A DNA stretch of 64,000 nucleotides from Minisyncoccota bacterium (GTDB lineage Bacteria > Patescibacteriota > Minisyncoccia > Phycocordibacterales > JBAYGS01). The notes below the pieces were generated by a model. It was not told the origin of the DNA. It ran no database searches and was given only the letters and a program-made list of their open reading frames with translations. The stretch covers positions 106,395-170,394 of the forward strand of contig JBAYGS010000002.1 in assembly GCA_041666545.1 (NCBI GenBank), written 5' to 3'. The position numbers and the translations under genes were made by a program. Below are positions 34,854 through 40,510 of the stretch, in pieces. Position 1 is the first letter of the stretch, and each line of letters opens with the position of its first letter.

Positions 34854-35507
34854 ATGACCAAGATCAAGGATCTTCAAAAAATTGATAGGCCAAGAGAAAA
34901 GCTGCAAAAGTATGGCGCAGGTAAATTATCCGACGCTGAACTTTTGGCAATTCTACTTCGAACAGGTACAAAAGATTTAAATGTTTTAAAATTAGCGCAA
35001 AAGATTTTACAAAAATTCGAAAATGAAAAATTTATTAATATCACAATTGACGAATTAAAGACAATCCACGGGTTGGGGCCAGTAAAGGCTTGTGAGATTA
35101 TTGCTTGTTTTGAGCTTGGAAGACGAATGTTGAAAGGTAAAAAATCATCAATTCTACTTTCTTCTAAAGATGTTTGGGAACGAATGGAAGATATTAGGGG
35201 AAGCAAAAAAGAGCATTTTGTAGTTTTTTATCTAGATAGTAGAAATCAAGAGATAAAAAAAGAAATTATTTCAGTTGGAACTTTAAATGAAAGCCTTGTT
35301 CACCCTAGAGAAGTATTTGAGGGTGCAATAAAAAATAATGCTTCTTCAGTTATTATTGCTCACAATCATCCCTCTGGAGATTTGGAACCCTCGCAAGCCG
35401 ATATTGAGATAACAAAAAAATTAATTCATGCTGGGAAAATTCTAGATATTAAAATAATTGATCATATTATTGTAGTAAATGATTCGTGGTCAAAGATTGA
35501 AGTGTAA
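34854..35507 (+). CDS. radC: RadC-like JAB-domain protein (UPF0758)
   Basis: Helix-hairpin-helix N-terminal region and JAMM motif HNHPSG...D (IIAHNHPSGDLEPSQAD). Confidence 0.85.
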   Translation: MTKIKDLQKIDRPREKLQKYGAGKLSDAELLAILLRTGTKDLNVLKLAQKILQKFENEKFINITIDELKTIHGLGPVKACEIIACFELGRRMLKGKKSSILLSSKDVWERMEDIRGSKKEHFVVFYLDSRNQEIKKEIISVGTLNESLVHPREVFEGAIKNNASSVIIAHNHPSGDLEPSQADIEITKKLIHAGKILDIKIIDHIIVVNDSWSKIEV

Positions 35508-35519
35508 GAAAGTAATTGT

Positions 35520-37124
35520 ATGAAAATAAAATCAATAAAAATAAATAATTTCCGCTCAATCAAAGAAGTTGAAATAACTGGACCCCTTGATGATGTGTGG
35601 ACATTCGTCGGTCAAAACAATGCCGGCAAATCATCAGTAATGCATGCAATCAGAGCTTTTTATGGTGAATATGATGTGAAAGCCGAGGACTTTTGCCGAG
35701 CAGATGGTTCCAATAAGCCAATAGAGATTACTATGGAGTATAAGCTTTCCGACGATGAATTCTTACAGCTTCCTGAGCAATACAAATTACCCAATAATAT
35801 TCTTTCTGTAGTCAAAAGATATGCGAGAGATTCTTTGAAGGGTGAATCACACGGATTTACTAAAGATTCGACAACTAGTGAAATAAAGGAAGTAGAGGAA
35901 GAATTTTTTGGAGCAAAAAACGTTGCTGTGGGAAAATTAGGAACGGTTATTTATATCCCCGCTGTTAAAGATTTAGGGGAGGAATTAAAAAAGACAAAAT
36001 CATCCCTATTTTCAAAACTAATAAGTCGAATACTTACAGAGACGCTTACAGACCTTCCTTCGTGGAATAATCTTATTAAAAATACTGAGGAATTTGCGAA
36101 TGATTTAAAGAGTCCAGTTAAAGCGACTGGCGAATTTAGAAGTGTGACTGAGATTGAAGAAAATTTATCAAACCGACTTAGTGGTTGGGGTTTAAAATCT
36201 CAAATAACAATTTCCGCTCCTTCTCCGGAAGACATTATTTTGTCGGGAGCCAAACTAAGATTAATTTCAAATGAAACAGGGGTTGAAGAAGACCCAATGA
36301 ATCTTGGTTCAGGTGCCCAACGTTCGATTGTAAATAACCTACTTCTTTTGTGGGCTGAGATAGAAAGCAAAAAAATAAAGACTGATAAAAAGAAATTTAG
36401 CGGTGAGATAACCCTTCTCTTGTATGAGGAACCGGAGGCACTTCTTCATTATGATCAAGAGTGTAAGTTGTTAAGAAATCTTGAAGATCTTTCTAAGACC
36501 AATAACAGCCAGGTACTTATTTGTACGCATTCACCCAATCTCATTAGTGCAAAAAATGAATCTCTAAAATGTGTATCAAGATTTGTAAAAAATTCTGGTA
36601 TTTCTACTAAGTACAGTGCAACAGAAATTTTTTTGAATAATCTTAAAACAAATGCACCAGATTTTGATTTTGTACTTTGGCTTAACCCTGATCGTAATAC
36701 TATGTTTTTTGTTGATAAGGTTATTCTAGTGGAAGGCCCATCTGATAAAGCCTTCTTAAATTATCTTACGAGAGAAAATAGCCTTGATAAAAATTCATAC
36801 ATAGTTGATTGTGGGAATAAAAGCAACTTGCCTAATTTTATGAAACTATGTGAGCAGTTTGGCATCAAGCATTCCGTTATGTTTGATAAAGATGGTGATA
36901 CTTCAGCAAACCATAAAGCTTGGAATAAAGCTGTTGTAGATGCAAAAAATTTATTCACCGTAGACATTAAAGACTTCCCGATAGACCTTGAGACGTATAT
37001 TAGATTTGATAAAGTTCCAGTTACAGGCAAGTTTAAAAAACCTCTTGAAGTTCTACGCCAGTTAAAAGAAGGTAAACTGTCTGTTGTTCATAATACAGAA
37101 TTTGTAACTTTTTTAAATAACTAA
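35520..37124 (+). CDS. OLD-family (overcoming lysogenization defect) ATPase-Toprim nuclease
   Basis: N-terminal ABC-type ATPase (MKIKSIKINNFRSI...VGQNNAGKSSV Walker A). C-terminal Toprim with VILVEGPSDKAFL (catalytic E) and DKDGD (DxD). Confidence 0.7.
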   Translation: MKIKSIKINNFRSIKEVEITGPLDDVWTFVGQNNAGKSSVMHAIRAFYGEYDVKAEDFCRADGSNKPIEITMEYKLSDDEFLQLPEQYKLPNNILSVVKRYARDSLKGESHGFTKDSTTSEIKEVEEEFFGAKNVAVGKLGTVIYIPAVKDLGEELKKTKSSLFSKLISRILTETLTDLPSWNNLIKNTEEFANDLKSPVKATGEFRSVTEIEENLSNRLSGWGLKSQITISAPSPEDIILSGAKLRLISNETGVEEDPMNLGSGAQRSIVNNLLLLWAEIESKKIKTDKKKFSGEITLLLYEEPEALLHYDQECKLLRNLEDLSKTNNSQVLICTHSPNLISAKNESLKCVSRFVKNSGISTKYSATEIFLNNLKTNAPDFDFVLWLNPDRNTMFFVDKVILVEGPSDKAFLNYLTRENSLDKNSYIVDCGNKSNLPNFMKLCEQFGIKHSVMFDKDGDTSANHKAWNKAVVDAKNLFTVDIKDFPIDLETYIRFDKVPVTGKFKKPLEVLRQLKEGKLSVVHNTEFVTFLNN

Positions 37125-37137
37125 CTTTTTCATTTCG

Positions 37138-38535: not shown

Positions 38536-38566
38536 TCTTTTTATCTCTATTTGTTAGAATGGGAAC

Positions 38567-39982
38567 ATGAAAAGAATTCGAGTTGTTGAACTGTTTGCAG
38601 GCGTAGGTGGCTTTCGTGTTGGTTTGGAGACTGCTACAAGAAATAATGGGCACATCAGGTATGAGGTAGTTTGGAGTAGTCAGTGGGAACCGGGTGCAAG
38701 TACTCAGCATGCTTCTCAAATCTATGAAGTAAATTTTGGTAAAGATGGACACTCGAATGAGGATATTCAAAAAATTATTGATAATAAATTCCACGAAATT
38801 CGAGACCATGATCTTTTAGTCGGAGGATTTCCTTGTCAAGATTACTCAGTAGCTAGGACATTAAGTCAGGCGAAGGGCTTAGAAGGGAAAAAGGGTGTTT
38901 TGTGGTGGTCAATATACAATATTCTTCAAAGGAAAGGTAAAAAGGCCCCTTCGTTCCTTTTATTGGAGAACGTCGACCGTCTGCTCAAATCCCCATCAGT
39001 ACAAAGAGGTCGTGATTTTGCTGTGATGCTTTCCTCACTTAATAATTTGGGCTATGCCGTTGAGTGGAGGGTCATAAACGCCGCAGAATACGGGATGCCT
39101 CAAAGAAGAAGGAGAGTCTATATTTTGGGCTATAAAAAAGGCACGGAAATTTATAAAAATCTCGAAGCGCAAGAAGATAAGGAAAGATGGATAAATAAAG
39201 ACGGGGTTACCGCCAAGGCTTTTCCGGTAAAAAATATAGTCCTAAATAAAAATAAATTCACATTGGAAAAAGATCTCGTAAAATTAACTAAAAATTTTTC
39301 AATGGGCAGTCCCCAAAAAAGTCCTTTTGAAATTTCTGGCATCATGATAAATGGTGAAGTTTATACGTACAAAGTTACCCCTGATTATGACGGCAAATTT
39401 ATTATTTTGAAGGATATTATTGAGCCGGATGAGAAAAAAATACAAAAAGAATTTTTCATTGATAAAAAAGATTTGCCAACATGGAAATATTTGAAGGGAG
39501 GGAAGAAGGAGGCCCGAAAAAGTAAGGGAGGTTTTACCTATGATTATTCAGAAGGCTCTATGGTCTTTCCCGATTCTCTTGAAAAGCCGTCCCGAACAAT
39601 TGTGACCGGTGAAGGAGGTATCTCACCTTCCAGATTCAAGCATGTGATAAAAACAAAGACCGGTAAGTTGCGTAGATTGACCTCAGAGGAGCTTGAGAGG
39701 TTGAATATGTTTCCGGAAGGCCACACAAAATTTATGCATAACGGGAAGATTACTCCAGATACAAAGAGGGCGTTTATTATGGGAAATGCGTTAGTTGTCG
39801 GTGTCATTGAAGGTCTTGGCAAAGCTCTGATTGAATTTATAAACAAGAAGCCAAAAAAGGGCAGGATGAGTGGAAAAAGGAAAAAATATTTAAGGGGCGA
39901 ACGCTCGCCACAACCACTAGGTGAAGATGTCCCCAAGAGGCTCGTGAGAACCGTTCTTGTGAGGGGGACATATTTAAGTTAA
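38567..39982 (+). CDS. DNA (cytosine-5)-methyltransferase (cognate M of the Sau3AI-like system)
   Basis: Motif I ELFAGVGGF, motif IV GGFPCQDYSVA, motif VI ENV, and a variable target-recognition domain. 471 aa. Confidence 0.9.
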   Translation: MKRIRVVELFAGVGGFRVGLETATRNNGHIRYEVVWSSQWEPGASTQHASQIYEVNFGKDGHSNEDIQKIIDNKFHEIRDHDLLVGGFPCQDYSVARTLSQAKGLEGKKGVLWWSIYNILQRKGKKAPSFLLLENVDRLLKSPSVQRGRDFAVMLSSLNNLGYAVEWRVINAAEYGMPQRRRRVYILGYKKGTEIYKNLEAQEDKERWINKDGVTAKAFPVKNIVLNKNKFTLEKDLVKLTKNFSMGSPQKSPFEISGIMINGEVYTYKVTPDYDGKFIILKDIIEPDEKKIQKEFFIDKKDLPTWKYLKGGKKEARKSKGGFTYDYSEGSMVFPDSLEKPSRTIVTGEGGISPSRFKHVIKTKTGKLRRLTSEELERLNMFPEGHTKFMHNGKITPDTKRAFIMGNALVVGVIEGLGKALIEFINKKPKKGRMSGKRKKYLRGERSPQPLGEDVPKRLVRTVLVRGTYLS

Positions 39983-39991
39983 TAATTTATG
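39939..39991 (+). repeat. 52-bp direct repeat DR-left (hairpin + GGGGG RBS + ATG)
   Basis: GCTCGTGAGAACCGTTCTTGTGAGGGGGACATATTTAAGTTAATAATTTATG is about 90% identical to 41766-41818. Confidence 0.7.
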
Positions 39992-40510
39992 AAAAAAGGC
40001 AAAGAAAAAGTTTTGGCAGGGATTGTTTTGAAATACTATCGTCTCTCCGATAAAAATGAAAAACCGGAAGGCGGACCCTCTGGAATTACTTGCGCGTATT
40101 GCCTCCTCCAAAATATTGTGCATATCGGCAGTGGTTTTAAGGACAAGAAGGGTAAGATCCATCACATCTGTGAACGATGCGCGGTAGAGGCCTATCGCAA
40201 GGAACATGGTTTTAAGACTTTGGCTGTGGCCGAGGCTAGGCGGAGGCGAATGTTTGATGTTGGGTATCTCTTCAACGAGATATTAGTTGACGAGTATATG
40301 AAGATTAAAGGGATTAAAGACTCTAAAAGTCTCGGTGAAAAAATTAATGATATTTTTGTCAGAGCTCCGGAATTGTATAACTATCTATTCAGTAAGGAGG
40401 AGAAAGTGAGGATTGAGGAAATCGAAGTTCAAGCTGAAATTGAAGCAGAATTAAGGGGAAAGATTGGAATTGTTGACCTTAAGCAGTTTTTCATTGAGGT
40501 CGGGTTGTAG
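39989..40510 (+). CDS. hypothetical Cys-rich protein (173 aa, CxxC...CxxC zinc-ribbon-like)
   Basis: Last gene of the radC-old-R-M operon. CAYC and CERC pairs. Followed by a 12-bp-stem GC hairpin at 40513-40540. Confidence 0.35.
   Translation: MKKGKEKVLAGIVLKYYRLSDKNEKPEGGPSGITCAYCLLQNIVHIGSGFKDKKGKIHHICERCAVEAYRKEHGFKTLAVAEARRRRMFDVGYLFNEILVDEYMKIKGIKDSKSLGEKINDIFVRAPELYNYLFSKEEKVRIEEIEVQAEIEAELRGKIGIVDLKQFFIEVGL

What the first reader, a model, noticed from the sequence alone, without database searches (positions are those of the whole stretch)
34854..40510. Tightly packed radC / OLD-family nuclease / Sau3AI-like REase / C5-MTase / Zn-ribbon operon: a restriction system coupled to an OLD ATPase-nuclease
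Five genes sit with 6-32-nt gaps on one strand. They are a RadC-like JAB protein, a full-length OLD-family protein (ABC ATPase plus Toprim with catalytic E and DxD), a Sau3AI/MutH-like endonuclease, a Dcm-type methyltransferase and a 173-aa CxxC protein. OLD nucleases are known as stand-alone (class 1) proteins, as partners of UvrD-like helicases (Gabija), or as part of PARIS. Direct operonic coupling to a type II R-M pair and a RadC-like protein is not a described architecture. It may be a composite defence module, for example an OLD nuclease acting on restriction-generated ends, or anti-restriction sensing. The Zn-ribbon protein could be a controller.
Basis: partly seen in the sequence, partly recalled or inferred. 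Interest (0 to 1): 0.8.

Follow-up and report, generated by a model that had tools for sequence, protein, structure and literature searches.

The report
OLD nuclease cassette nested in restriction operons
A mobile, AT-rich four-gene island in a Patescibacteria (CPR) genome joins a Sau3AI-type restriction-modification pair to an OLD ATPase-nuclease whose close relatives sit inside restriction operons of several other types, so the link is real but is a new variant of the known "backup defence gene embedded in a restriction system" theme.

Summary
Five same-strand ORFs with gaps of 12, 13, 31 and 6 nt encode RadC, a class-1-type OLD ATPase-Toprim nuclease, a full-length Sau3AI-family REase, a C5-MTase and a 173-aa Zn-ribbon protein. 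The first four form a low-GC island (GC3 0.23-0.37 vs about 0.45). The same block occurs in another contig with unrelated flanks.

The OLD-restriction link is not coincidental. In 16 of 19 non-redundant loci carrying this OLD clade (51-89% identity, Patescibacteria), the gene is nested in or next to an R-M operon. The types are type I (HsdS-OLD-HsdR), type III-like (Mod-OLD-Res), IIG, ISP, DpnII-like and Sau3AI-like. In 0 of 10 loci with more distant OLDs is there an R-M neighbour.

DNA homology between contexts stops at the OLD ORF borders. The OLD tree does not follow R-M type, and no residues are diagnostic of context. This fits an autonomous plug-in cassette rather than a dedicated subunit.

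RadC recurs at the operon head in 5 loci. ORF5 is not part of the conserved block and shows no controller features.

The most likely role is a second-line (backup or abortive) nuclease that is co-expressed and co-transferred with first-line restriction, like PrrC, RloAB, PARIS and HEC-04. This is inferred, not shown. Novelty is moderate.

The parts
34854..35507 (+). radC: full-length RadC/YicR-type protein (N-terminal HhH-like UPF0758_N plus JAB domain with HNHPSG...SQAD). It is the first gene of the island.
   Evidence: Pfam and NCBIfam. GC 0.323 and GC3 0.229, like OLD and the REase and unlike the host. 80% identical orthologue at the same position in L040, a C-terminal stub in L019, and RadC at the head of type I+OLD operons in L046 and L047.
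35520..37124 (+). old: class-1-type OLD family ABC-ATPase plus Toprim nuclease (534 aa), a member of a Patescibacteria clade that is habitually nested in R-M operons.
   Evidence: for family and motifs. for neighbourhoods; homology to non-Sau3AI loci is confined to 35507/35520-37124/37128.
37138..38535 (+). Sau3AI-family type II restriction endonuclease (465 aa, two MutH-like domains). Presumed target is GATC.
   Evidence: NCBIfam NF040973 428 bits above cut-off 300. PDB 4PXG 3e-53 over residues 27-413. PADLOC REase_II 1e-79. 75% identical orthologue in L040 and 78% in L019.
38524..38560 (+). Conserved palindrome GATCAAGATTGATC (two GATC sites) overlapping a -35-like TTGATC, then 17 nt, then an extended -10 TAGAAT, just upstream of the MTase start. 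Candidate methylation- or MTase-sensitive promoter.
   Evidence: Promoter scan. The same element is conserved in L040 at 9404-9445 despite 74% overall DNA identity. Function is inferred.
38567..39982 (+). Dcm-type C5 cytosine DNA methyltransferase. The core is residues 1 to about 422 (to about 39832). The last roughly 44 aa form a basic tail that the L040 orthologue lacks.
   Evidence: PF00145 1e-60, PADLOC MTase_II 1.5e-162, TIGR00675. Motifs I, IV, VI, VIII and X. Homology to L040 ends at 39810-39847.
34854..39832 (.). Extent of the low-GC mobile island (radC-old-R-M).
   Evidence: GC profile and per-gene GC3. One continuous blastn match to L040 covers 34903-39810 at 74% identity, and the flanks of the two loci are unrelated.
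39989..40510 (+). ORF5: 173-aa Zn-ribbon plus helical protein. Probably co-transcribed (6-nt gap, and a GC-rich hairpin follows only after it), but not part of the conserved module.
   Evidence: No family hit. 15 homologues, all in Patescibacteria. Absent from L040. GC3 0.443. AF2 pLDDT 75 with no PDB fold match, best E = 1.8. Its homologue in L048 follows a different MTase/GmrSD insert.

Best explanation
The locus is a horizontally mobile, AT-rich island, radC-old-sau3AIR-dcm, in a Candidatus Paceibacterota genome.

The R-M pair is an ordinary Sau3AI-type system. The REase cuts unmethylated GATC and the C5-MTase protects the host. The MTase is probably expressed from its own promoter, which overlaps a palindrome containing two GATC sites.

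The OLD gene is a self-contained 'plug-in' cassette. It belongs to a Patescibacteria clade of class-1-type OLD ATPase-nucleases that has repeatedly been fixed inside R-M operons of any type. The commonest position, and possibly the ancestral one, is HsdS-OLD-HsdR, the same slot PrrC occupies in EcoprrI.

Most likely mechanism (inferred): OLD does not bind a particular restriction enzyme. It is an autonomous second-line effector that is co-transcribed, translationally coupled and co-transferred with first-line restriction. Its ABC-ATPase senses an infection cue that arises when restriction is evaded or inhibited, such as anti-restriction proteins or persistent broken or single-stranded DNA. It then releases the Toprim nuclease on DNA or tRNA to abort infection.

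RadC is a recurrent but dispensable companion of unknown role, possibly nucleic-acid processing. ORF5 is a bystander.

Shown: gene identities, intact catalytic motifs, island borders, conserved linkage, cassette-like behaviour, and purifying selection.
Inferred: GATC specificity, the trigger, the substrate, the abortive outcome, and any role for RadC.
For: - **Linkage.** 16 of 19 non-redundant clade loci have OLD nested in or next to R-M genes. These comprise 7 type I (S-OLD-R), 2 type III-like (Mod-OLD-Res), 1 type IIG with S subunit, 3 Sau3AI-like, 1 DpnII-like, 1 ISP with PIF1, and 1 divergent Dcm/Vsr set. Many have 4-nt start/stop overlaps.
- **Controls.** 0 of 7 distant genomic or metagenomic OLDs and 0 of 3 plasmid OLDs have R-M neighbours. 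Fisher P = 3e-5, or 3e-3 after collapsing to 7 of 10 independent contexts. Background R-M gene density in the same loci is about 6%.
- **Cassette behaviour.** blastn homology between contexts stops at the OLD ORF borders. OLD GC3 is about 0.33 even inside type I operons whose genes have GC3 0.46-0.65.
- **Autonomy.** R-M types are interleaved on the OLD tree. Only 2 of 143 variable columns separate type II from type I contexts, no more than arbitrary 3-versus-3 splits give.
- **Functional constraint.** All ATPase and Toprim catalytic residues are invariant across 24 clade members. dN/dS is about 0.05.
- **Host signature.** GATC is tied with ACGT as the most depleted 4-mer palindrome in the window, observed/expected 0.45.
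[quoted passage not shown] RloAB (ATPase plus Toprim) lies inside Campylobacter type I loci (PMC10802264). The fused ABC-Toprim HEC-04 is embedded in Hma and validated, and embedding is common in type I R-M (bioRxiv 10.1101/2024.01.29.577857). OLD-ABC/Toprim modules are described as backup effectors in BREX (PMC12839542). P2 OLD is described as an abortive tRNase activated by ssDNA (bioRxiv 10.64898/2026.07.10.737580).
Against: - No experiment or computation here shows a trigger, a substrate or an abortive phenotype. The backup role rests on analogy plus linkage.
- Linkage alone cannot separate functional synergy from co-mobilisation.
- Three clade loci (L008, L011, L026) lack R-M neighbours, so R-M is not obligatory.
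- Known anti-restriction DNA mimics mainly hit type I and BREX systems, not type II enzymes such as Sau3AI. A 'restriction-inhibition sensor' therefore fits the window's own context less neatly.
- In 11 loci OLD sits next to a helicase-type gene (HsdR, Res, SLFN-like or PIF1), which could instead point to a Gabija-like DNA-processing partnership.
- The census comes from 19 loci taken from metagenome contigs, not from an exhaustive survey.
Confidence: 0.55

Rival explanations
1. OLD is a working accessory of restriction itself. It acts as an ATP-dependent exo/endonuclease that degrades the DNA ends or fragments made by whichever REase it is expressed with. This is a RecBCD-like clean-up that prevents repair of restricted phage DNA in reduced genomes, and it is the first reader's 'acts on restriction-generated ends' idea.
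For: The association is independent of R-M type, as expected if the common denominator is double-strand breaks. OLD is translationally coupled to the R subunits. It frequently sits next to helicase-type genes: HsdR in 7 loci, Res in 2, SLFN-like helicase, and PIF1. Class 1 and class 2 OLDs nick and degrade DNA in vitro (PMC6755086).
Against: Three clade loci have no R-M partner. At least one Patescibacteria locus (L002) carries a UvrD-helicase plus PDDEXK_1 AddAB-like gene nearby, so end-processing enzymes are not universally missing. Recent work assigns tRNase and abortive roles to P2 OLD and PARIS rather than clean-up (bioRxiv 10.64898/2026.07.10.737580, PMC10802264). No direct evidence either way was obtained here.
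Confidence: 0.2
2. Pure hitch-hiking. The OLD cassette is an independent defence or selfish gene. It accumulates inside R-M operons only because these are addictive, frequently transferred 'safe harbours' and defence-island hotspots. There is no functional interaction or synergy with restriction.
For: Cassette-like borders, and GC3 distinct from the surrounding R-M genes. No context-specific residues. Other unrelated accessory genes (Fic, DUF2130, NOV_C, GIY-YIG, T5orf172, DUF4357) decorate the same operons. Payne et al. note that embedding is widespread for many unrelated systems (bioRxiv 10.1101/2024.01.29.577857).
Against: The insertion is always in frame with operon logic (4-nt overlaps, same strand). 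It has been retained across more than 45% protein divergence in the S-OLD-R slot. Distant stand-alone OLDs show no such tendency (0 of 10). Selection is needed to explain why the link is re-created with five R-M types.
Confidence: 0.17
3. RadC plus OLD protect the host rather than attack phage. They would form a repair or restriction-alleviation module that processes self-inflicted breaks when a newly acquired R-M system cuts under-methylated host DNA.
For: RadC was historically linked to repair of DNA strand breaks, and RadC is predicted to process nucleic acids (PMC5512222). RadC and OLD travel with the R-M pair in the mobile island, which would be useful at establishment in a new host.
Against: RadC's repair role is disputed (PMC5512222 cites 'RadC, a misleading name?'). 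Characterised members of the OLD family act in defence and abortive infection. RadC is absent from most clade loci.
Confidence: 0.05
4. Coincidental adjacency of unrelated genes in a gene-dense small genome.
For: Patescibacteria genomes are compact and rich in R-M genes. Gaps of 6-31 nt are common there.
Against: The four-gene block is conserved in unrelated flanks. 16 of 19 clade loci are R-M-linked against 0 of 10 outgroups. The binomial P against a 6% R-M background is about 3e-12, or 2e-5 after collapsing to independent contexts.
Confidence: 0.03

Closest known systems
Class 1 OLD nucleases (phage P2 Old; Thermus scotoductus OLD, PDB 6P74)
   Same: Single polypeptide with an N-terminal ABC-ATPase and a C-terminal Toprim, with E and DxD. 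No UvrD-type partner. Best sequence and structure match in the PDB. Similar length (534 vs 528 aa).
   Different: Class 1 was defined as isolated single genes (PMC6755086), whereas this clade is operon-embedded in R-M systems. It is only 28-33% identical to the nearest stand-alone relatives.
PrrC anticodon nuclease in the EcoprrI type IC locus (hsdM-hsdS-prrC-hsdR)
   Same: An ABC-type NTPase fused to a nuclease. It occupies the same slot between hsdS and hsdR as this OLD clade does in 7 loci. PrrC is the paradigm of an 'RM guardian' (PMC12707154, PMC3874165).
   Different: The effector is an anticodon-nuclease domain, not Toprim. PrrC is physically masked by one type I enzyme. Here near-identical OLDs serve type I and type II contexts with no context-specific residues.
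RloAB (Campylobacter type I loci), AbiL and PARIS (AriA/AriB)
   Same: OLD-like ABC-ATPase plus Toprim nuclease. RloAB lies inside a type I R-M locus. PARIS is triggered by the anti-restriction protein Ocr (PMC10802264).
   Different: Those are two-gene split systems with a DUF4435/RloB-type Toprim. This one is a fused single chain. AriA gives only weak hits to the ATPase part.
HEC-04 and other 'embedded' ABC-ATPase defences (Payne et al., bioRxiv 10.1101/2024.01.29.577857); OLD-ABC/Toprim backup modules in BREX (PMC12839542)
   Same: A fused ABC-ATPase-Toprim nested within a multi-gene defence operon and interpreted as a backup effector. HEC-04 defence needs Walker A and the Toprim metal site.
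   Different: Those were described for Hma, BREX, DISARM and type I systems in RefSeq genomes. The best PADLOC model here is 'Old', and HEC-04 is not among the top 25 hits. The partnership with a two-gene type II pair, with type III-like, IIG and ISP systems, with RadC, and in Patescibacteria was not found in the papers searched.
Gabija (GajA OLD class 2 plus GajB UvrD-like helicase)
   Same: OLD-family ATPase-Toprim. PADLOC GajA models hit at 1e-31 or weaker. GajA structures are the second-best fold matches.
   Different: There is no GajB/UvrD-like gene adjacent in the window or in the clade loci. In 9 loci the neighbouring helicase is instead the R-M motor subunit.
Sau3AI R-M system of Staphylococcus aureus 3A
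   Same: A two-domain MutH-like REase plus a C5-MTase. The REase passes the NCBIfam equivalog cut-off.
   Different: By established knowledge the canonical system is a two-gene unit. Here it carries radC and old upstream and sits in a mobile low-GC island.

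Membership tests
OLD family nuclease | N-terminal ABC-type ATPase with Walker A, signature motif, Walker B and H-loop | tested here: met
   AAA_15 5e-36. GQNNAGKS 31-38, LGSGAQR 262-268, LLLYEEPE 299-306, THSP 336-339. These residues are invariant in 24 clade members.
OLD family nuclease | C-terminal Toprim domain with catalytic Glu and DxD | tested here: met
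   PF20469 OLD-like_TOPRIM 59.7 bits against cut-off 23.2. E405, D456 and D458 are invariant.
OLD family nuclease | Overall fold like solved OLD proteins | tested here: met
   AF2 pLDDT 83. Best PDB hit is 6P74 Ts OLD, E = 6e-21, TM 0.61/0.64.
OLD class 1 (Schiltz et al. 2019) | Exists as a single, isolated gene with no conserved partner | tested here: not met
   It is operonic with R-M genes in 16 of 19 clade loci. It resembles class 1 in sequence and structure, but not in genomic context.
OLD class 2 / Gabija | Adjacent UvrD/PcrA/Rep-like helicase (GajB) | tested here: not met
   No such gene is adjacent in the window or next to OLD in any clade locus.
PARIS / RloAB / AbiL | ATPase and Toprim encoded as two separate genes | tested here: not met
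   A single 534-aa ORF carries both domains.
RM-guardian of PrrC type | Gene nested between hsdS and hsdR of a type I operon | tested here: met
   This is met for clade homologues L001, L017/L044, L021, L042, L045, L046 and L047. In the window itself the partner is a type II pair, so the feature holds for the clade and not for this locus.
RM-guardian of PrrC type | Nuclease kept latent by the R-M enzyme and released by an anti-restriction factor | not testable with these tools
   Needs biochemistry or genetics. The lack of context-specific residues argues against a specific physical mask.
Embedded defence system (guilt-by-embedding, Payne et al. 2024) | Gene nested between components of a known multi-gene defence system, on the same strand | tested here: met
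   10 loci have OLD between R-M subunits. A further 3, including the window, have it flush against an R-M pair.
Sau3AI-family type II REase | Full-length match to the family model above the curated cut-off, with two MutH-like domains | tested here: met
   NF040973 427.7 bits against 300, covering residues 5-458. 4PXG alignment covers residues 27-413.
Sau3AI-family type II REase | Catalytic D...ExK motif | tested here: met
   EPDF 68-71 and EVELK 75-79, aligned to the Sau3AI catalytic region.
Sau3AI-family type II REase | Cleaves GATC and is blocked by GAT(5mC) | not testable with these tools
   Indirect support only. GATC observed/expected is 0.45, the lowest together with ACGT. Two GATC sites lie in the conserved MTase promoter palindrome.
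C5 cytosine DNA methyltransferase | Motifs I (FxGxG), IV (PCQ), VI (ENV), VIII (QRR) and X (GN) | tested here: met
   FAGVGG 10-15, FPCQ 88-91, ENV 134-136, QRR 179-181, GNA 406-408. PF00145 1e-60.
RadC/YicR | UPF0758 N-terminal HhH-like domain plus a JAB domain with the HxH...S..D metal site | tested here: met
   PF20582 1e-26 and PF04002 8e-42. NF000642 239 bits against 180. HNHPSG 170-175 and SQAD 180-183.
R-M controller (C) protein, proposed for ORF5 | Small HTH (Xre-type) DNA-binding protein conserved with the R-M pair | tested here: not met
   No HTH or any other family hit. The model is a Zn-ribbon plus helices with no PDB match. It is absent from the orthologous block in L040.

The most novel reading that the evidence does not exclude
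This Patescibacteria OLD clade is a universal plug-in 'restriction-failure alarm'. It reads a signal common to all restriction types, such as unresolved DNA breaks or ssDNA, rather than a specific anti-restriction protein. RadC, a near-universal bacterial protein with no established function, would be a working partner of R-M/OLD modules that processes the nucleic-acid signal or substrate. That would give RadC its first concrete functional context.
Probability: 0.2. Interest if true: 0.7.

Novelty: new variant of a known kind. Interest (0 to 1): 0.5.

Why it matters
- **A natural experiment.** One OLD protein, 85-89% identical between contexts, is wired into type I and type II restriction operons, and its cousins into type III-like, IIG and ISP systems. 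This makes it a clean system for asking whether embedded ABC-ATPase/Toprim effectors sense something generic about failed restriction or are simply co-mobilised.
- **Wider scope for the embedding concept.** It extends 'embedded defence' from large multi-gene systems in cultured bacteria to two-gene type II systems, and to Patescibacteria. Defence in these tiny genomes is poorly characterised.
- **A lead on RadC.** The recurring RadC link is a rare contextual clue to a protein family whose role has stayed unresolved for decades.
- **Annotation.** These OLDs should not be annotated as stand-alone class 1 genes. R-M annotation pipelines would miss a probable second defence layer.

Tried and rejected
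- **Phage origin.** A viral-contig scan with the OLD clade alignment and another with the ORF5 alignment both found no relatives. There is no sign that either is phage-borne.
- **ORF5 as a controller.** Pfam, PADLOC and NCBIfam gave no hits. The AF2 model had no PDB fold match. The afdb50 library was unavailable. The controller idea was dropped.
- **Empty-site search.** Using an ORF5 homologue (L048) gave no synteny with the window beyond ORF5 itself. It showed ORF5 next to another MTase/GmrSD insert. With only two contexts, whether ORF5 is R-M-associated in its own right stays open.
- **Cassette recombination sites.** I looked for attC-like or other shared motifs at the OLD borders and found none. 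Upstream and downstream sequences are context-specific.
- **Repeats as island ends.** The 30-nt direct repeat upstream of radC has no copy at the right border, so it is not an att pair.
- **R-M linkage as a general OLD property.** Rejected: 0 of 10 distant OLD loci are R-M-linked.
- **Context-specific adaptation of OLD.** 2 of 143 diagnostic sites, no more than random splits give.
- **Missing paper.** Krishnan et al. 2020 (ABC-ATPase classification) could not be read. Its coverage of OLD in R-M-like systems is known here only through citations in PMC12839542 and the Payne preprint.
- **Census count.** An early tally of 13 of 17 was revised. L018 is redundant with L017, so the final count is 16 of 19.

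Full report
**1. What is in the sequence**

ORF listing confirms five same-strand ORFs: 34854-35507, 35520-37124, 37138-38535, 38567-39982 and 39989-40510. The gaps between them are 12, 13, 31 and 6 nt.

- **RadC.** PF04002 8e-42 plus UPF0758_N. It scores above the NCBIfam RadC equivalog cut-off.
- **OLD.** AAA_15 5e-36 plus OLD-like_TOPRIM 4e-16, and PADLOC 'Old' 1e-56.
- **REase.** A full-length Sau3AI-family enzyme: NF040973 428 bits against a cut-off of 300, and PDB 4PXG 3e-53 across both MutH-like domains.
- **MTase.** A Dcm-type C5-methyltransferase (PF00145 1e-60, PADLOC MTase_II 1.5e-162).
- **ORF5.** No family hit in any library.

All catalytic motifs are intact. An AlphaFold model of OLD (pLDDT 83) matches the class 1 Thermus OLD structure 6P74 best (TM 0.61-0.64), ahead of GajA and retron Eco8 effectors.

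**2. The unit is a four-gene mobile island, not five genes**

| Gene | GC | GC3 |
|---|---|---|
| radC | 0.32 | 0.23 |
| old | 0.35 | 0.27 |
| REase | 0.33 | 0.27 |
| MTase core | 0.39 | 0.37 |
| ORF5 | 0.41 | 0.44 |
| Whole window | 0.45 | - |

- A single blastn match joins window 34903-39810 to contig L040 at 74% identity. It runs from RadC to about MTase residue 415.
- L040 has the same RadC-OLD-REase-MTase order, the same low GC against 0.44-0.48 flanks, and completely unrelated flanking genes.
- L019 has a RadC C-terminal stub, then OLD, a small NOV_C gene and the same REase.
- L040 lacks ORF5, and its MTase is 52 aa shorter. The window MTase carries a 44-aa basic tail encoded beyond the homology border.
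- Between the window and L040, all four genes show pN far below pS: 0.07-0.22 against 0.64-0.84. OLD and REase have dN/dS of about 0.05, and synonymous sites are saturated. The block is therefore old and selectively maintained.

**3. The OLD-restriction link is conserved, but not with Sau3AI specifically**

A protein search found a discrete clade of about 40 sequences at 42-89% identity. The next hits are at 34% or below. Source names place the clade in Patescibacteria (Parcubacteria and Saccharibacteria MAGs). The window itself is from Candidatus Paceibacterota.

| Context | Loci | Arrangement |
|---|---|---|
| Type I | 7 | HsdM-HsdS-OLD-HsdR |
| Type III-like | 2 | Mod-OLD-Res |
| Type IIG | 1 | IIG enzyme...OLD-S subunit |
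| Sau3AI-like type II | 3 | window, L040, L019 |
| DpnII-like type II | 1 | Dam-MutH-like-N6_N4 MTase-OLD |
| Type ISP | 1 | ISP-PIF1-OLD |
| Dcm/Vsr/PDDEXK set | 1 | divergently adjacent |
| No recognisable R-M neighbour | 3 | L008, L011, L026 |

- Junctions are typically 4-nt overlaps or gaps of 1-13 nt.
- By contrast, 0 of 7 loci with 28-32% identical OLDs have R-M neighbours, and neither do 0 of 3 plasmid loci.
- Fisher's exact test gives P = 3e-5. It gives P = 3e-3 after collapsing to seven independent R-M contexts. R-M genes make up about 6% of the other genes in these loci.

The coupling is real.

**4. OLD behaves as an autonomous cassette**

- DNA homology between the window and every non-Sau3AI locus starts and stops at the OLD ORF borders, 35507/35520 to 37124/37128.
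- OLD keeps GC3 of about 0.33 even when the flanking hsd genes have GC3 of 0.46-0.65.
- R-M types are interleaved on the OLD tree. The window's closest relative (L001, 89% identity) sits in a type I operon.
- Among six sequences that are 85-89% identical, only 2 of 143 variable columns separate the type II from the type I contexts. Arbitrary 3-versus-3 splits give 0-3.
- No shared recombination motif flanks the ORF.

Together this argues against a dedicated physical partnership with any one restriction enzyme. It favours a self-contained module that selection repeatedly fixes inside R-M operons. The S-OLD-R arrangement has homologous flanks across the whole clade (51-89% identity). It is plausibly the ancestral position and is the exact slot of prrC in EcoprrI.

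**5. RadC and ORF5**

*RadC.*
- It heads the operon in the three Sau3AI-type loci. It also heads two divergent type I loci: L046 (RadC-HsdM, with a 4-nt overlap) and L047.
- RadC identities between these groups (41-47%) run parallel to the OLD identities (51-56%).
- In the window and L040, RadC has island-like composition. In L046 and L047 it is host-like.
- RadC is absent from most other loci, so it is a recurrent but dispensable companion.
- I cannot tell whether this reflects a functional link, or one old linkage that was inherited and later lost.

*ORF5.*
- It is a Patescibacteria-only Zn-ribbon plus helical protein (15 homologues).
- It has no fold match and no HTH.
- The only other context I could examine (L048) places its homologue after a different Fic-EcoRI-like MTase-GmrSD/HNH insert, with matching low GC.
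- It may be a mobile, R-M-adjacent gene in its own right, but it is not part of this module and nothing marks it as a controller.

*A better control candidate.* The palindrome GATCAAGNTTGATC carries two GATC sites. It overlaps a -35-like TTGATC, followed 17 nt later by TAGAAT or TACAAT, directly upstream of the MTase start. It is conserved between the window and L040.

**6. Host signature**

GATC is tied with ACGT as the most depleted 4-bp palindrome in the window: 113 observed against 253 expected, a ratio of 0.45. Outside the island the ratio is 0.43. This is consistent with long exposure of the lineage to GATC-specific restriction. Specificity itself was not tested.

**7. Mechanism**

Shown:
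- Gene identities and intact active sites.
- Operon structure and the borders of the mobile island.
- Conserved R-M linkage of the OLD clade.
- Cassette-like behaviour, with no context-specific residues.
- Purifying selection on all four genes.

Inferred, by analogy with published systems:
- OLD is a second-line effector. It is co-expressed and co-transferred with first-line restriction, and it fires when restriction is bypassed or inhibited.
- The analogies are:
  - PrrC-EcoprrI and the 'RM guardian' concept (PMC12707154, PMC3874165).
  - RloAB inside Campylobacter type I loci, and Ocr-triggered PARIS (PMC10802264).
  - The validated fused ABC-Toprim HEC-04, and the general embedding phenomenon (bioRxiv 10.1101/2024.01.29.577857).
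  - OLD-ABC/Toprim 'backup suicidal effectors' in BREX (PMC12839542).
  - P2 OLD as an ssDNA-activated tRNase (bioRxiv 10.64898/2026.07.10.737580).

I put about 0.55 on this model. The alternatives are:
- A restriction-fragment clean-up nuclease, about 0.2. It fits the type-independence and the frequent helicase neighbours.
- Pure hitch-hiking without synergy, about 0.17.
- A host-protective repair role for RadC and OLD, about 0.05.
- Coincidence, about 0.03.

**8. Novelty**

I did not find the following in the papers searched:
- A class-1-like fused OLD clade that is promiscuous across at least five R-M types at high identity.
- Its attachment to a two-gene type II pair.
- The recurrent RadC link.
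- The Patescibacteria setting.

Krishnan et al. 2020 could not be read, so prior description there cannot be excluded.

I rate this a new variant of a known kind, with interest 0.5.

Noticed in passing
window 34427-34456 and 34754-34783: A 30-nt direct repeat (CTCAGTATTYCCTCRCTCGACGYTCGGTCA) has exactly two copies and none expected by chance. The copies bracket the 65-aa ORF just upstream of radC. Each is followed within about 20 nt by a -10-like box (TAAAAT or TAGAAT). It may be a shared operator or promoter element for the small ORF and the radC operon.
   Followed up: partly
window 33805-33831, 34110-34136, 44841-44867: A 27-nt near-perfect palindrome (TTCTAGCWTTTTGCAAAAAGCTARAAT) occurs three times, with none expected by chance. 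Two copies flank the ArsR-like HTH ORF at 33815-34138. It looks like a dispersed intergenic palindromic element or an operator.
   Followed up: partly
window 33342-33393 and 33538-33610: tRNA-Glu(ttc) has a 52-nt, 94% identical copy of its 5' part 189 nt upstream. A partial tRNA duplication like this is often a scar of element integration. It lies about 1.3 kb upstream of the island and has host-like GC.
   Followed up: no
window 32096-33304 (- strand): A 402-aa LAGLIDADG-domain ORF has a 3' end that reads through tRNA-Ser(cga) at 32117-32207 on the same strand. Either the ORF call is over-extended, or a homing endonuclease gene abuts the tRNA.
   Followed up: no
window 40619-41766: An HTH_3 plus SocA/Panacea antitoxin-like protein (246 aa) is followed after 5 nt by a 133-aa ORF with no family hit. 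This is a candidate Panacea-type toxin-antitoxin pair with an undescribed toxin. A T4 endoV-like pyrimidine-dimer glycosylase follows at 41816-42169.
   Followed up: no
L017/L044 2934-4106; L041 4169-5269; L045 9417-10757; L015 11774-13060: DUF2130, a PD-(D/E)XK superfamily protein (PMC3424549), recurs next to this OLD lineage. It lies inside or after type I operons, directly after OLD in L041, and directly after a distant stand-alone OLD in L015. It may be a second conserved partner of OLD.
   Followed up: partly
L001, L042, L045, L046 (operon heads); L019 1682-2146; L044 9955-10341; L005 and L008: The same Patescibacteria R-M operons are decorated with other accessory genes. These are Fic at the head of four type I operons, small NOV_C-domain genes, small GIY-YIG genes, T5orf172 and DUF4357. 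The operons act as hubs for embedded accessory genes.
   Followed up: no
L048 5662-9537: The ORF5 homologue (57% identity) sits directly after a low-GC Fic-EcoRI-like MTase-GmrSD_N/HNH insert in an otherwise 52% GC ribosomal-protein/GrpE-DnaK region. The Zn-ribbon protein family may itself be a mobile, R-M-adjacent gene. This rests on two contexts only.
   Followed up: partly
window 39833-39982: The MTase ORF runs about 44 codons past the end of homology with its orthologue, into host-like sequence. This produces a highly basic C-terminal tail (KKPKKGRMSGKRKKYLRGERS...). It is probably a by-product of the island's right-hand junction.
   Followed up: partly
clade loci generally: The OLD gene keeps GC of 0.33-0.38 whatever the host GC (0.36-0.49), even though synonymous sites between orthologues are saturated. 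The AT-richness is therefore maintained rather than being a recent-transfer signal that is fading.
   Followed up: no
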